From: the human T2T-CHM13v2.0 reference genome, Homo sapiens
DNA: 64,000 bases
Strand: one strand, 5' to 3'
Assembly: GCF_009914755.1 (NCBI RefSeq)
Contig: NC_060926.1
Translations under genes and position numbers: made by a program
In this document: positions 34,190-40,906 of the stretch, piece after piece
Layout of the letters: each line of letters begins with the position of its first letter
Position numbering within the stretch: position 1 is the stretch's first letter
Notes under the pieces: model-generated
The model's input: only the letters and a program-made list of their open reading frames with translations
Told to the model about the DNA's origin: nothing
Database searches by the model: none

Positions 34190-38105
<3,916 letters not shown>

Positions 38106-38294
38106 TGTCAGAAACACAGCTGGACGTGAGTTAAAGTGGTGAAAAAACAGATTTTATTCAGTAACTACTGAAAGTAGGGAAGGAGCTGAGCTTATTCCGA
38201 TTTCGGCAGAGGTGATTTGGGTGTTTTAAAGAAAGAATGAGGGAGACGGGAATAAAGGAGCTCCGAAGTGTCGGGGAAGTGAAAAAGTGCAAAG

Positions 38295-38460
38295 GGGAGC
38301 TTCCGGATAGCGAAGCACGTGGAGGTTCCTGGAGGGTGTCCTCCCAGAGAGGACGTGGAACCTTCCCGCTCCCACCGCGCACTTGCCCTGTGTATCTCTT
38401 CCCTTTGGCTGTTCATCTACATACGTGGTAGTTTCCTTTATAGTAAACTAATAAACGGAA
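38295..38460 (+). mobile_element. MER21 LTR fragment forming the 5' end of the retrocopy
   Basis: GGGAGCTTCCGGATAGCGAAGCACGTGGAGGTTCCTGGAGGGTG...TCCTTTATAGTAAAC resembles the recalled MER21 consensus. Confidence 0.75.
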
Positions 38461-40169
38461 ATTTGCAGCAGCTGTGAAAAACTTCAATTTTCTGAATCCA
38501 CTTTTGATTTTTAGTGGCGATTGCTTAAATGCCTCAGTTTTAAGTATCATAACGAAAGGAAAGCATACGATTCCTATATTAATGAATCGGAAGTACCTTT
38601 TGCAGTTTTTGTTTTGCTTTTTCAGACAAGGTCTTATTCTGTCATCCAGGCTGGAGTGCATTGGTGGGAACACAGCTCACTACCTACTCAGCCTCCTGAG
38701 CTCAAGCGATCCTCCCACCTCAGCCTCTCAAGTGGCTAGGACCACAGGCACCCACGCACTACACCGCCTAACTAATGTTTTGTTTTATATTATATTATTT
38801 TATTTTATAGAGACAGAGGTCTCACCATGTCGACCAGGCTAGTTTTGAACTCCTGGCCTCAAGCAATCCTCCTCCCACCTCAGCCTCCCAAAGTGCTAAA
38901 ATGATAGGTGTGAGCCACTGCACCCGGTGATTTTGCAGTTTTTGGAAACCACAAGTTTGATTTCGGTGTGAATATTTTGGAAGAATCTATGAAACAAATG
39001 CACTTCATCTGATTTCTCAGTAATGTTGATGATAGATTTACTTCTGAACCTCTTGGACGTGTGTATGTTAGAAGTTCTCCACCCAATTGATACGGAATTA
39101 AATAGCTGTGAAATTACTGTAAGAAGAACCGAAGCAACGTTGGAAATTTGGTAACTAATGCCACGTTGGAAGCTATTCATGCCAATGTAGCATTGCTTCA
39201 TACAGGTACTTCCAGATCTAATTGAATACATCCAGTGGGAAATTTCGCTTTGCGTGATTTTTTGGCTATCCTTCTCATAATGGACCCCAGTTTTAGTTGT
39301 CAGAGTAACACAGGCACAGCTGCTTGAAGGTCTTGAAAATGAGGTTAACAAATATTCAGCTTTTGGTGGGAGTTTTTCTCAAGTTGTTGGAATAGAATTT
39401 GGACTCAATTCAGATGCGGAACTGGGACACTGAATGATAGATAACAGATACTGTGAAAGTTCAAGGACCATACGAAAAAAATTTACCTTCTTGCTGCTAT
39501 AAACAATATATTGCACATGGGAAAGATAGTTACGTTATGCCTGATAGTTGTTCTTGAATGTTTGACACAGAAACTGTACAAGTACCTTCCACAGTCATCA
39601 TGAATCACTTTTAATCGATAAAAATTTTGTAGGGAAGGAAGCAGTGTCTTTCAGGCCATTGAATGAATTTGATTACTACTACGAACAAATCATCATTATT
39701 AACAGCCTTCGAGGAAGAATCAGATAAGCCATCAGCAGTAATTGCAGTACCTGGCATAGAAGGGTGAATTTGCCATATTTCTCAGCACATGAAAGAACAT
39801 TTGTACCAACTTAGAGCCGGAGGGGAACAAGGTTTAAGAACTTTTCCCGTTATTAGTGGTAATGCATCTGAAAATTTTGATTCTGATTGAAATACTATAT
39901 GGGTAATATATAATCAATGCCCAACTGAATGGAGAAAACCTACACTTTTTGCATTGTTAAGCACAGTAATATAATTTTGGCTCTTTGGCATTGTTCTAGA
40001 ATTAATTTTAATTCTAGGGATATTGCTCTAAATGTGCTTCTTATCACTTTTGACTCTTCAGTGTGTTATCCAGGAAACAATATATATACACTTGTGAACT
40101 GTTGTTTGTGATTTAAGCATATATATTGAATAATGTTTCCAGATTAAATGACTTCCAAGCTCCAAAGAA
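38295..40169 (+). pseudogene. Processed pseudogene of a 5'-nucleotidase (NT5EL/CG11883-like metallophosphatase) with a MER21-derived 5' leader
   Basis: Disrupted intronless frames FAAAVKNFNFLNPLLIFSGDCLN, AVF[Alu]GNHKFDFG (38944-38967), VRRTExNVGNLV, LLEGLENEV, IAHGKDSY, PGIEG*I; ATTAAA at 40143, A-rich tail from 40164, 12-bp TSD (38283-38294 / 40170-40181). Confidence 0.85.
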
Positions 40170-40906
40170 AAGAGTACAAAGCATTGGTCAATATAAACGT
40201 GATTAGGTCAGCTGTGTCTGCTAGCAGGCAGTTATCTGAATTAGGGATCTATCCTCCCACAGAGAGTTGGAGACGGAGGCCTTATCCTTCTTGATGATTA
40301 TATTTTGAAGGAATGGCTCTCAGATCCTTGAGAGAGATGCTCCTGAGTTACAATTGTGAGGACTTTTTGGTAAGTGCCCTAAGAAAGTGTGGTCAAGGAG
40401 CTATCATCAGATGTGTGCTGGCTAGAGCACATAGTAGATTTTCCTGGCAGCACTTAGCTTTCTCAGGCAGGCACTATTTAGGGGCCTGGGATCATTCTAG
40501 GGACACAGCCTTATGCTGCCAGAAGCCAGACTTGTTTGATCAGGTCTCAGTGCAGGGATTCGGATGGGGTTTTCATGTGCCAAGGGTTCTGCACTCTTCC
40601 TTCTCTGCTGCTTGGCACTGTGCATGGTGATCCGTACGGTAATCTACACAGCGTGGTGCTCCTCACCGCAATCTATGGGACAGCTCAGGGAGAACTCAGC
40701 TTTTCCAGCCCCCCAGTTTTAGGTTGAAAAATCATGGTAATACCCATTAAAAAACAACACAAGCAGTAGCCAGCAAGCAGCGAGGTGCCAACATTGGGGT
40801 GCCCTCTCAGGCAGTGGCTGCCGTCTGCTGGGGCCAGTTACTAAGAACTCTACAGACTCATTGTCTCCATGTGGTGTACACCACCTAGCTTGCTCGCTGT
40901 ACTAAC

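What the first reader, a model, noticed from the sequence alone, without database searches (positions are those of the whole stretch)
38461..39890. Hidden fossil retrocopy of a 5'-nucleotidase gene (NT5EL/CG11883 type) apparently lost in humans
Seen: after removing the Alu at 38612-38930 (TSD TTTTGCAGTTTTTG) and allowing frameshifts, the + strand reads [87 protein letters not shown]...EVLHPIDTELNSCEITVRRTE-NVGNLVTNATLEAIHANVALLHTGTSRSN*IHPVGNFALRDFLAIL...DP-VLVVRVTQAQLLEGLENEVNKYSAFGGSFSQVVGIEFG...YIAHGKDSYVM...PGIEG*I. Knowledge: GD and GNH(E)FDFG are the metallophosphoesterase motifs of the UshA/NT5E family, and RxxEsnlGN, LENGV, FPQVSG, GxDGY and EGRI mark the 5'-nucleotidase C-terminal domain. 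Inference: the sequence is closer to the CG11883/mouse Nt5el subfamily than to NT5E. It is intronless, has a poly(A) remnant and a TSD, and carries an AluJ-type insertion, so it is an old mRNA record of the parent gene. The ORF track misses it because stops fragment it.
Basis: partly seen in the sequence, partly recalled or inferred. Interest (0 to 1): 0.85.

Follow-up and report, generated by a model that had tools for sequence, protein, structure and literature searches.

The report
Orphan retrocopy of lost 5'-nucleotidase gene
This stretch is a dead, intron-free copy of a 5'-nucleotidase-like gene that humans no longer have in working form; it keeps sequence that the broken original on chromosome 5 has lost, and it now makes up most of the last exon of an imprinted non-coding RNA.

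Summary
Window 38297-40166 (+) is a processed pseudogene flanked by a 16-17 bp target-site duplication. An old Alu (38612-38930) interrupts it. Its reading frames match the mouse-lemur orthologue of the NT5E-like ("NT5EL"-type) 5'-nucleotidase at 270 of 360 aligned codons. They carry 8 stops and 6 frameshifts. It does not derive from NT5E/CD73.

The intron-bearing parent survives on G000 chr5 65.20-65.27 Mb (minus strand) as a broken unitary pseudogene. It is 81% identical to the retrocopy in DNA over 657 bases. Coding for residues 1-62 and about 413-584 was not found there. The retrocopy still holds residues 413-584, in about 687 bases with no other match in the genome.

- The copied mRNA began in an LTR-like repeat exon (38297-38460) spliced onto an internal exon.
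- It used a cryptic donor inside a long exon, which removed about 155 codons and broke the frame. The copy was therefore non-coding on arrival.
- Its ATTAAA signal (40143-40148) sits 15 bases before the RefSeq 3' end of the lncRNA CMKLR2-AS/GPR1-AS (40163).

This is a new member of a known kind, an orphan retrocopy. It is not in the RefSeq table for this window.

The parts
38281..38296 (+). Left copy of the retrocopy's target-site duplication, inside dispersed repeat X
   Evidence: Five other genomic copies of repeat X (L022, L023, L024, L034, L035) run straight from the window's left flank (to 38296) into its right flank (from 40169), with 11-15 bases overlapping. Over 15 bases, 11 match between the two copies, read by eye.
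38297..38460 (+). 5' exon of the copied mRNA, derived from LTR-like dispersed repeat Y
   Evidence: It lies inside the duplication and is 72-76% identical to other Y copies (264 candidates, 40 scored). Other copies continue upstream with an A-rich CATAAAAACCC-type box 24-30 bases before the position of 38297 (6 of 8). They also continue downstream, with GT directly after the position of 38460 in 4 of 8.
38461..38611 (+). Copy of parental exon a (residues 64-114 of the lemur orthologue); one frameshift near 38576
   Evidence: 84% identical to chr5 65270681-65270831. There the exon is preceded by ttttttAG. Protein alignment.
38612..38930 (-). Old Alu inserted after retroposition, with a perfect 14-base duplication (38598-38611 / 38931-38944)
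   Evidence: for the sequence; 19.3% non-CpG divergence from the majority Alu consensus, the 3rd most diverged of 52 Alus in the window plus 120 kb of chr5.
38945..39064 (+). Copy of the 5' part of parental long exon b (residues 115-153; GNHKFDFG motif); stop at 39010
   Evidence: 85% identical to chr5 65233736-65233855. Protein alignment.
39062..39066 (+). Junction made by a cryptic splice donor inside exon b joined to the acceptor of exon c. Residues 154-308 are absent and the frame shifts.
   Evidence: On chr5, exon b runs without a break through residues 113-308 (65233855-65233257). The window leaves it where chr5 reads CATG|GTGCAG and resumes at the start of exon c.
39065..39207 (+). Copy of parental exon c (residues 309-357); frameshift near 39134
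   Evidence: 78% identical to chr5 65226594-65226746. Protein alignment.
39208..39372 (+). Copy of parental exon d (residues 358-412); stop at 39223, frameshift near 39286
   Evidence: 78-79% identical to chr5 65224618-65224768. Translated similarity runs to window 39373 / chr5 65224601. On chr5, GTATGT follows the exon.
39373..39890 (+). Copy of the downstream coding exons (residues about 413-584) ending in the natural TGA stop (39888-39890). No counterpart elsewhere in the human genome.
   Evidence: 71% identical to lemur residues 433-584 at E 7.2e-59. No chr5 or other genomic match by DNA, tblastx or protein. Frameshifts near 39440, 39474 and 39496. Stops at 39431, 39555, 39612, 39630, 39660 and 39765.
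39891..40163 (+). 3' UTR of the copied mRNA. The last 102 bases (40060-40161) match the end of the parental 3' UTR.
   Evidence: 84% identical to chr5 65203431-65203530. Similarity stops right after ATTAAA...gct.
40143..40148 (+). ATTAAA polyadenylation signal carried by the retrocopy and conserved in the chr5 parent
   Evidence: It lies 15 bases before 40163, the 3' end of NR_104359.1 in the hub's RefSeq table.
40167..40183 (+). Right copy of the retrocopy's target-site duplication, preceded by about 3 A's (40164-40166)
37299..40163 (+). Last exon of the lncRNA CMKLR2-AS (GPR1-AS), from the hub's annotation. About 65% of it is the retrocopy unit.
   Evidence: Hub's RefSeq table. The AG acceptor at 37297-37298 was read. 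The overlap is computed from the coordinates above.

Best explanation
Window 38297-40166 is an L1-type processed pseudogene: an mRNA was reverse-transcribed and inserted into an older dispersed repeat. Its source was a vertebrate paralogue of NT5E, the 'NT5E-like' 5'-nucleotidase found in sharks, reptiles, monotremes, marsupials, rodents, rabbit, dugong and lemurs. The human original lies on chr5 (G000:C5 about 65.203-65.271 Mb, minus strand) and is itself dead.

The copied transcript was not the canonical mRNA:
- It started in an LTR-like repeat (inferred: at that repeat's own transcription start).
- It spliced from a donor in that repeat to an internal exon. This skipped the exon(s) that code the start codon and residues 1-62.
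- It used a cryptic donor inside the long exon b. This removed residues 154-308 and shifted the frame.

The copy therefore could never have made the enzyme. It has since decayed neutrally (8 stops, 6 frameshifts) and received one very old Alu.

Its age is inferred to be early primate or stem Euarchontoglires, roughly 55-90 Myr. The parent stayed constrained for part of that time, because it shows about half as many amino-acid changes, and then broke.

Today the relic has no coding role. It supplies about two thirds of the terminal exon of the imprinted lncRNA CMKLR2-AS/GPR1-AS. In the RefSeq model it also supplies the polyadenylation signal.

What is shown directly: homology, intron loss, target-site duplication, disablements, parent locus. 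What is inferred: the LTR transcription start, splicing as the cause of both odd junctions, the dating, and actual use of the poly(A) site.
For: Identity:
- Pfam 5_nucleotid_C hits on two fragments, in collinear order.
- 51 hits among 1.84e9 representatives. These belong to a vertebrate and invertebrate orthogroup carrying Metallophos plus 5_nucleotid_C.
- Against lemur P0065: 72 of 89 and 198 of 271 codons identical, with the natural stop aligned.
- Tree of 16 rows: both human copies sit inside the eutherian clade at 100/100.

Not NT5E:
- The orthogroup scores only about 84-87 bits against human CD73 chains.
- Two window fragments find no CD73 chain at E<=10.

Retroposition:
- Five blocks match chr5 at 78-85% identity. 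There they are separated by about 36.8, 7, 1.8 and 21 kb. In the window they are contiguous.
- Splice-site dinucleotides flank the chr5 blocks.
- Similarity ends 13 bases after ATTAAA.
- The duplication and the uninterrupted 'empty site' are seen in 5 other copies of the host repeat.
- Only one such copy exists in the genome.

LTR-first exon:
- The 164 bases lie inside the duplication.
- They end exactly at the first base of exon a.
- They diverge from the repeat family where that family reads GTAAAG.

Cryptic splice: chr5 exon b is continuous through residues 113-308.

Parent broken:
- Stops at 65270768, 65233568, 65233559 and 65224657.
- Frameshifts at 65233835, 65233710 and 65224664.
- GNHEFD reads GNREF-.
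- The acceptor of exon c reads GG.
- Residues 1-62 and about 413-584 were not found.

Relative decay over 180 shared columns: 117 unchanged, 33 retrocopy-only, 18 chr5-only, 4 both changed differently, 1 shared derived, 7 ambiguous. End branches are 0.41 and 0.20.
Against: - Each Pfam fragment hit is below the curated cut-off on its own (20.4 and 18.1 against 23.6 bits).
- The poly(A) tail is nearly absent (about 3 A's). The duplication matches at only 11 of 15 bases.
- No copy of repeat Y more than 76% identical to the window's piece was found. The search covered 120 kb of the chr5 locus and the 40 scored of 264 genome-wide candidates. The proposed LTR exon therefore has no surviving parental counterpart.
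- The repeat families X and Y were not named. 'LTR-like' rests on a TATA-like box and AATAAA seen in an 8-copy alignment.
- The sister grouping of retrocopy and chr5 copy has weak support (65/73), and placement within Euarchontoglires is unresolved. The age is therefore loose.
- RACE in Kobayashi et al. 2013 (PMC3857343, passages seen) gave a 1505-nt, 6-exon GPR1AS. That implies a much shorter last exon than RefSeq's 2865 bases, so use of the 40163 site rests on the RefSeq model alone.
- The genome-wide protein search used a stricter first look and may miss weak exons.
Confidence: 0.9

Rival explanations
1. The 164-base repeat piece (38297-38460) was never part of the mRNA. Either the reverse transcriptase switched template from the 5' end of the nucleotidase mRNA to another repeat-bearing RNA, or a repeat fragment landed next to the retrocopy independently.
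For: No parental copy of this repeat was found in 120 kb of the chr5 locus, nor among the 40 scored of 264 genome-wide candidates at more than 76% identity. Template-switch chimeras are a known L1 by-product (general knowledge).
Against: The piece lies inside the same duplication as the exons. Its 3' end abuts the exact first base of parental exon a. It falls where 4 of 8 family copies read GT. A template switch or an independent insertion would hit both boundaries only by coincidence.
Confidence: 0.12
2. The missing residues 154-308 result from a DNA deletion in the retrocopy after insertion, or from an internal jump during reverse transcription, and not from cryptic splicing.
For: Internal deletions are common in old pseudogenes. 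The junction can only be placed to within about 4 bases.
Against: The 3' edge of the gap coincides with the start of exon c. The 5' edge coincides with a GT in exon b, where chr5 reads CATG|GTGCAG.
Confidence: 0.1
3. It is a pseudogene of NT5E (CD73), or a chance or transposon-borne similarity, and not a copy of a separate lost gene.
For: NT5E shares the same two Pfam domains. The genome-wide PF02872 scan lists NT5E exons as the strongest matches.
Against: - There is no DNA match to chr6.
- The window fragments find no CD73 chain.
- The copy is 76% identical to the lemur orthologue of the other paralogue.
- Exon-by-exon DNA matches to chr5 run at 78-85%.
- The sequence is single-copy and not a repeat family.
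Confidence: 0.01
4. It is a segmental (DNA-level) duplicate or a still-coding retrogene.
For: None beyond the homology itself.
Against: Three introns are absent, the unit ends at a poly(A) site, and it is flanked by a duplication. It has 8 stops and 6 frameshifts, no start codon, and about 155 codons missing.
Confidence: 0.01

Closest known systems
Orphan retrocopies and retrogenes: retrocopies whose parental gene was lost (Ciomborowska et al. 2013, PMC3548309; Carelli et al. 2016, PMC4772013; search listing and abstract openings only)
   Same: An mRNA-derived copy that outlives a working parent in the same genome. It is invisible to pipelines that search with the species' own proteins.
   Different: Here the copy is itself dead and was dead on arrival. 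The parent is not absent but survives as a decayed unitary pseudogene. The published sets, as far as their abstracts say, concern functional replacements.
Ordinary L1-mediated processed pseudogenes, such as ATP5POP1 and HMGN1P6 annotated in this same window
   Same: Intron loss, an end at the parental poly(A) site, a target-site duplication and neutral decay.
   Different: The source transcript was LTR-initiated and cryptically spliced. The parent is not a human protein-coding gene. The copy is absent from the RefSeq table supplied for this window.
Unitary pseudogenes of the human lineage (Zhang et al. 2010, PMC2864566; main text searched)
   Same: The chr5 locus is an intron-bearing, disabled, single-copy relic of a gene that is intact in other mammals.
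   Different: The main text of that paper has no occurrence of 'nucleotidase' or 'Nt5'. Its supplementary lists could not be opened, so prior listing cannot be excluded.
NT5E / CD73 ecto-5'-nucleotidase
   Same: Metallophos plus 5_nucleotid_C architecture.
   Different: It is a distant paralogue, at about 84-87 bits against the shark orthologue. The orthologues seen here open with an acidic or Ala-rich N-terminus rather than an obvious signal peptide (read by eye).
LTR-derived first exon of GPR1-AS itself (MER21C; Kobayashi et al. 2025, PMC12129452; abstract, section 5 and passages read)
   Same: It is another case in the same lncRNA where a retroelement supplies a transcript boundary.
   Different: That work concerns the 5' end. 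The terms pseudogene, nucleotidase, retrocopy, polyadenylation, last exon and final exon each have 0 occurrences in its text.

Membership tests
L1-type processed pseudogene (retrocopy) | Lacks the introns of an intron-bearing parent located elsewhere in the genome | tested here: met
   Exons a|b, b|c and c|d are contiguous in the window. On chr5 they are 36.8 kb, 7 kb and 1.8 kb apart.
L1-type processed pseudogene (retrocopy) | Flanked by a target-site duplication; the empty site is recognisable | tested here: met
   The duplication is 38281-38296 / 40167-40183, with 11 of 15 bases matching. Five other copies of the host repeat are uninterrupted across the site.
L1-type processed pseudogene (retrocopy) | Ends at the parental poly(A) site with a poly(A) tail | tested here: inconclusive
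   Homology with the chr5 3' UTR ends 13 bases after a shared ATTAAA. Only about 3 A's remain before the A-rich duplication.
5'-nucleotidase / UshA superfamily (Pfam Metallophos + 5_nucleotid_C) | Significant match to both domains | tested here: inconclusive
   Window fragments hit 5_nucleotid_C twice, each below the cut-off (20.4 and 18.1 against 23.6 bits), and do not hit Metallophos. Intact orthologues pass both: P0014, P0001, P0021. Membership of the relic follows from 75% codon identity to orthologue P0065.
NT5E-like ('NT5EL'-type) vertebrate orthogroup | Closer to members of this orthogroup than to NT5E; nests within it on a tree | tested here: met
   270 of 353 columns are identical to Microcebus P0065. 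The copy sits inside the eutherian clade at 100/100. That tree used 14 orthologues chosen from the 120 listed plus the two human copies, with no NT5E row. There are no CD73 hits for the fragments.
NT5E-like ('NT5EL'-type) vertebrate orthogroup | The orthogroup is the one that carries the symbols Nt5el (mouse) and CG11883 (fly) | not tested
   Names are automatic ('snake venom 5'-nucleotidase-like', 'YfkN-like'). Nt5el is confirmed only as a mouse gene symbol (PMC10969083) and NT5EL as a Tasmanian devil symbol. The CG11883 literature search was uninformative. The equation is an inference by elimination: the human genome shows only NT5E, the chr5 relic and this copy.
NT5E (CD73) processed pseudogene | DNA or protein similarity highest to NT5E on chr6 | tested here: not met
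   There is no chr6 DNA match. The best matches are on chr5.
Unitary pseudogene (the chr5 parent) | Intron-bearing, disabled, with no functional copy in the genome | tested here: met
   Four stops and three frameshifts, a catalytic-motif His changed to Arg, and missing terminal exons. There is no other locus (within the limits those searches state).
Unitary pseudogene (the chr5 parent) | Lies at the position syntenic with the functional orthologue in other mammals | not testable with these tools
   No other mammalian genome is held.
TE-initiated chimeric transcript | First exon begins at the repeat's own start site and ends at a donor within the repeat | tested here: inconclusive
   In the 8-copy alignment, an A-rich TATA-like box lies 24-30 bases upstream in 6 of 8 copies, and GT follows the junction in 4 of 8. 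The repeat family is unnamed and no parental copy was found.

The most novel reading that the evidence does not exclude
The retrocopy's arrival in an early primate brought a ready-made polyadenylation signal into the path of the imprinting-establishing transcript that runs from the GPR1/CMKLR2 intron towards ZDBF2. This created the terminal exon of primate GPR1-AS. It would explain why the human transcript is a free-standing lncRNA that stops about 8.4 kb short of ZDBF2, whereas the mouse counterpart (Liz) reads on and splices into Zdbf2. On this reading, a relic of a lost metabolic gene reshaped an imprinted locus.
Probability: 0.2. Interest if true: 0.65.

Novelty: new member of a known kind. 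Interest (0 to 1): 0.45.

Why it matters
- It documents a human-lineage gene loss with two independent relics. The retrocopy preserves about 172 codons and part of the 3' UTR that the parental locus has lost. That helps reconstruct the ancestral primate gene and date the loss.
- It is a rare 'fossil' of a non-canonical transcript, LTR-driven and cryptically spliced, from tens of millions of years ago.
- It shows a blind spot in pseudogene annotation. Pipelines seeded with a species' own proteins cannot find copies of genes the species has lost. This one is absent from the RefSeq table for the window.
- It forms most of the terminal exon of an imprinted lncRNA central to ZDBF2 imprinting, and in the RefSeq model it supplies the poly(A) signal. 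This gives a concrete, testable element for how that transcript ends.

Tried and rejected
- PDB sequence searches with single window fragments gave nothing or only a weak Staphylococcus-type 5'-nucleotidase hit at E 0.17. The fragments are too short.
- The word-indexed protein search with a 50-residue fragment found nothing: 7 candidates, none scored. The exhaustive HMMER search was needed.
- A parental copy of repeat Y was sought and not found. There was no match better than chance in chr5 65185001-65305000. Genome-wide there was nothing above 76% identity among the 40 scored of 264 candidates.
- chr5 counterparts of window 39373-40059 and of residues 1-62 were sought and not found.
- The tree could not resolve whether retroposition came before or after the strepsirrhine split, or even the primate-Glires split.
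- The absence of anthropoid names among the best 120 orthologue clusters was rejected as evidence of loss in anthropoids. Clusters are built at 90% identity, and lemur and rabbit proteins are already 90.8% identical, so clusters could merge species.
- Literature:
  - 'nt5el' matched anywhere in a word gave 14 papers. By title, none is on a human pseudogene. Two were opened.
  - 'unitary pseudogene' plus 'nucleotidase' gave 0 papers.
  - 'CG11883' gave 8 papers, none informative by title or abstract.
  - Two GPR1-AS papers do not mention the element.
- The supplementary tables of Zhang et al. 2010 were closed.
- GENCODE, RetrogeneDB, UCSC retro tracks, RepeatMasker and Dfam could not be consulted.
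Full report

Yes.

Two of these pieces match Pfam 5_nucleotid_C in collinear order. Window 39112-39222 matches profile positions 17-50 at E 5.8e-4. Window 39281-39433 matches profile positions 72-117 at E 3.1e-3. Each is below the 23.6-bit cut-off on its own, and the other nine pieces gave nothing.

A whole-genome scan with that Pfam model found only three kinds of place: NT5E exons on contig 6, this window, and one place on contig 5.

The Alu lies at exactly 38612-38930, with a perfect 14-base duplication.

**2. The parent locus**

Searching the window's own genome with the Alu-free DNA found a set of separated blocks on contig 5, minus strand (identities recomputed).

| Window | chr5 | Identity |
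|---|---|---|
| 38461-38611 | 65270681-65270831 | 84.0% |
| 38945-39064 | 65233736-65233855 | 85.1% |
| 39065-39207 | 65226594-65226746 | 77.6% |
| 39208-39356 | 65224618-65224768 | 77.7% |
| 40060-40163 | 65203429-65203530 | 82.4% |

In total, 657 aligned bases are 81.1% identical, with K2P 0.222.

On chr5 the blocks are flanked by splice-site-like dinucleotides. They are 36.8, 7, 1.8 and 21 kb apart. In the window they abut. This is direct evidence of an mRNA-derived copy.

No other copy exists in the genome by DNA search. The protein search agrees, but it ran with a stricter first look that can miss weak matches.

**3. What gene it was**

A 51-residue read-through of window 39136-39288 (TGA as X) was searched against 1.84 billion representatives. 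It found 51 proteins at E<=1e-3. The best was a 588-residue lungfish protein at E 8.9e-9 and 56% identity.

A 545-residue whale-shark hit was then used as a query. It returned 2307 proteins at E<=1e-20, of which the best 120 were listed. They include coelacanth, turtles, lizards, echidna, two marsupials, rabbit, several rodents, dugong and two lemurs (Microcebus P0065, Propithecus P0068), as well as invertebrates.

Three tested members carry Metallophos plus 5_nucleotid_C above the cut-off. Against solved structures the shark protein scores 120 bits to a 5'-nucleotidase chain (2z1a) but only about 84-87 bits to human CD73 chains. The orthogroup is therefore a distant paralogue of NT5E.

The symbols Nt5el (mouse, '5' nucleotidase, ecto-like'; PMC10969083, passage seen) and NT5EL (Tasmanian devil; bioRxiv 10.1101/2022.05.27.493404, passage seen) very probably denote this orthogroup. 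That equation is an inference and no call verified it. CG11883 was not tested.

**4. Anatomy against the lemur orthologue**

A frameshift-aware alignment was run against P0065.

Window:
- It covers residues 64-153 with 72 of 89 codons identical. There is a frameshift near 38576 and a stop at 39010.
- It then jumps to residues 309-584 with 198 of 271 codons identical.
- Frameshifts lie near 39134, 39286, 39440, 39474 and 39496.
- Stops lie at 39223, 39431, 39555, 39612, 39630, 39660 and 39765.
- The natural stop at 39888-39890 aligns with the protein's end.

chr5:
- Exon a covers residues 64-113 with 40 of 50 identical and a stop at 65270768.
- Exon b is a single long exon covering residues 113-308 with 165 of 195 identical. 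It has a 1-base loss in GNHEFD with His changed to Arg, a frameshift at 65233710, and stops at 65233568 and 65233559.
- Exon c covers residues 307-357 with 41 of 51 identical. Its acceptor now reads GG.
- Exon d covers residues 358-406 with 42 of 49 identical, and extends to about residue 412. It has a frameshift at 65224664 and a stop at 65224657.

Residues 1-62 and about 413-584 were not found in chr5 65185001-65305000 or elsewhere in the genome.

The human original is thus a broken, partly deleted unitary pseudogene. Window 39373-40059, about 687 bases, is the only surviving human record of the C-terminal 172 codons and part of the 3' UTR.

**5. True limits and the insertion site**

The flanks 38112-38296 and 40169-40599 belong to one dispersed repeat, called X here. 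In five other genomic copies X is uninterrupted, and the two flanks overlap by 11-15 bases (junction alignment).

This defines a duplication of 16-17 bases, 38281-38296 / 40167-40183, and an inserted unit 38297 to about 40166.

Homology with the chr5 3' UTR ends 13 bases after a shared ATTAAA (40143-40148). Only about 3 A's follow before the duplication.

**6. A non-canonical source transcript**

The first 164 bases of the unit (38297-38460) do not come from the nucleotidase gene. They come from another dispersed repeat, called Y here (264 candidates, 40 scored, 70-78% identity).

In an alignment of 8 Y copies:
- The family continues upstream of the position of 38297, with an A-rich CATAAAAACCC-type box 24-30 bases before it in 6 of 8 copies.
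- The family carries AATAAA near the position of 38450.
- The family continues downstream of the position of 38460. GT directly follows in 4 of 8 copies, and in a fifth after a 5-base gap.

The window leaves the Y family exactly there and continues with the first base of parental exon a. On chr5 that exon is preceded by ttttttAG.

The simplest reading is an LTR-initiated transcript whose repeat-derived first exon was spliced onto exon a, bypassing the coding start.

Second, the copy leaves exon b where chr5 reads CATG|GTGCAG and resumes at the start of exon c. This is a cryptic intra-exonic donor joined to the normal acceptor. It removes residues 154-308 and shifts the frame, which the window shows as ...EPLGRVYVRSSPPN*.

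The template was therefore already non-coding. Both points are inferences from boundary coincidences. No parental Y copy survives to confirm the first.

**7. Age**

The Alu inside the copy is the 3rd most diverged of 52 Alus in the window plus 120 kb of chr5, at 19.3% non-CpG divergence from the majority consensus. It is therefore among the oldest Alus. AluJ is plausible, but the subfamily was not tested.

Over 180 columns present in both human copies, polarised by 8 eutherian orthologues:

| Column state | Count |
|---|---|
| Unchanged in both | 117 |
| Changed in retrocopy only | 33 |
| Changed in chr5 only | 18 |
| Changed in both, differently | 4 |
| Shared derived (R to C) | 1 |
| Ambiguous | 7 |

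The tree used 16 rows: the two human copies plus 14 orthologues that I chose from the 120 listed. It puts both human copies inside eutherians at 100/100 and inside a clade with lemurs, rabbit and rodents at 83/89. Sister grouping of the two has only 65/73 support. End branches are 0.41 for the retrocopy and 0.20 for chr5.

I infer the following:
- Retroposition happened near the base of primates, or at most in stem Euarchontoglires.
- The parent stayed under constraint for roughly half the time since, and then decayed.

Absolute dates rest on recalled substitution rates and are rough.

**8. Present context**

According to the hub's RefSeq table, the last exon of CMKLR2-AS (NR_104359.1) is 37299-40163. 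The retrocopy unit makes up about 65% of that exon. The exon ends 15 bases after the retrocopy-borne ATTAAA, at the place where the parental mRNA was polyadenylated. In that model the lncRNA is terminated by the relic's own signal.

There is a caveat. Kobayashi et al. 2013 (PMC3857343, passages seen) obtained a 1505-nt, 6-exon RNA by RACE. That implies a shorter last exon, possibly ending near the A-tract of the Alu at about 37942-37956. That placement is my inference.

Neither that paper (0 occurrences of 'pseudogene' or 'nucleotidase') nor Kobayashi et al. 2025 (PMC12129452; 0 occurrences of six relevant terms; section 5 read) mentions the element. The 2025 paper does state that the mouse counterpart is a fusion transcript with Zdbf2, whereas human GPR1-AS contains no ZDBF2 exons. 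That contrast motivates the novel reading.

**9. Comparison and novelty**

In kind, this is an L1-type processed pseudogene and an 'orphan' retrocopy, a known category (PMC3548309 and PMC4772013, listings and abstract openings only). It is paired with a unitary pseudogene, also a known category (PMC2864566; the main text has no 'nucleotidase' or 'Nt5'; supplements closed).

This member combines four particular features:
- It is the relic of a gene lost in humans.
- It derives from an LTR-driven, mis-spliced template.
- It retains sequence that the parent has lost.
- It has been recruited as the terminal exon, and possibly the terminator, of an imprinted lncRNA.

It is not in the RefSeq table supplied for the window. 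I could not check GENCODE or the retrocopy databases.

**10. Verdict**

The finding is confirmed and its interpretation is supported, with corrected boundaries and a richer history. It is a tidy and instructive case rather than a surprise of principle. Interest is 0.45. Novelty is a new member of a known kind.

Noticed in passing
G000:C5:65203431-65270831 (loci L010-L016, L026), minus strand: A broken, intron-bearing relic (unitary pseudogene) of the NT5E-like 5'-nucleotidase gene. Four exons are recognisable (residues 64-412 of the lemur orthologue), along with the end of the 3' UTR. It has 4 stops and 3 frameshifts. No trace was found of the first coding exon or of residues about 413-584.
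   Followed up: yes
Proteins P0065, P0061, P0067, P0066, P0057, P0014: Orthologues of this family start with an acidic or Ala-rich N-terminus and have no obvious signal peptide. Their first metal-binding motif reads HFNDVY. As I recall it (no call), CD73 has His where these have the final Tyr. The 'ecto-like' enzyme may therefore be intracellular and catalytically divergent.
   Followed up: no
table (e.g. P0097, P0101, P0106, P0009, P0129): In echinoderms and cnidarians the same orthogroup is fused to ankyrin-repeat domains (Pfam PF12796, PF00023, PF13637 and others), giving proteins of 800-936 residues.
   Followed up: no
window 37655-37956: A younger Alu (+ strand; 6.8% non-CpG divergence) with a 14-15 base A-tract lies inside the CMKLR2-AS last exon. 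The 1505-nt RACE product of Kobayashi et al. 2013 would end about here. This suggests either an alternative 3' end or internal oligo-dT priming.
   Followed up: partly
window 38112-38296 and 40169-40599: Host repeat X is an old dispersed repeat. Other copies are 65-83% identical. The search with window 39350-40260 gave 25 matches, 23 of them to its downstream part. It was not named here.
   Followed up: partly
window 38406-38460 vs G000:C5:70114212-70114362: One copy of repeat Y (L019) shares the window's 'cggaa' just before the junction. It is only 73% identical overall and lies 4.8 Mb from the parent locus, so it is probably an unrelated family member.
   Followed up: partly
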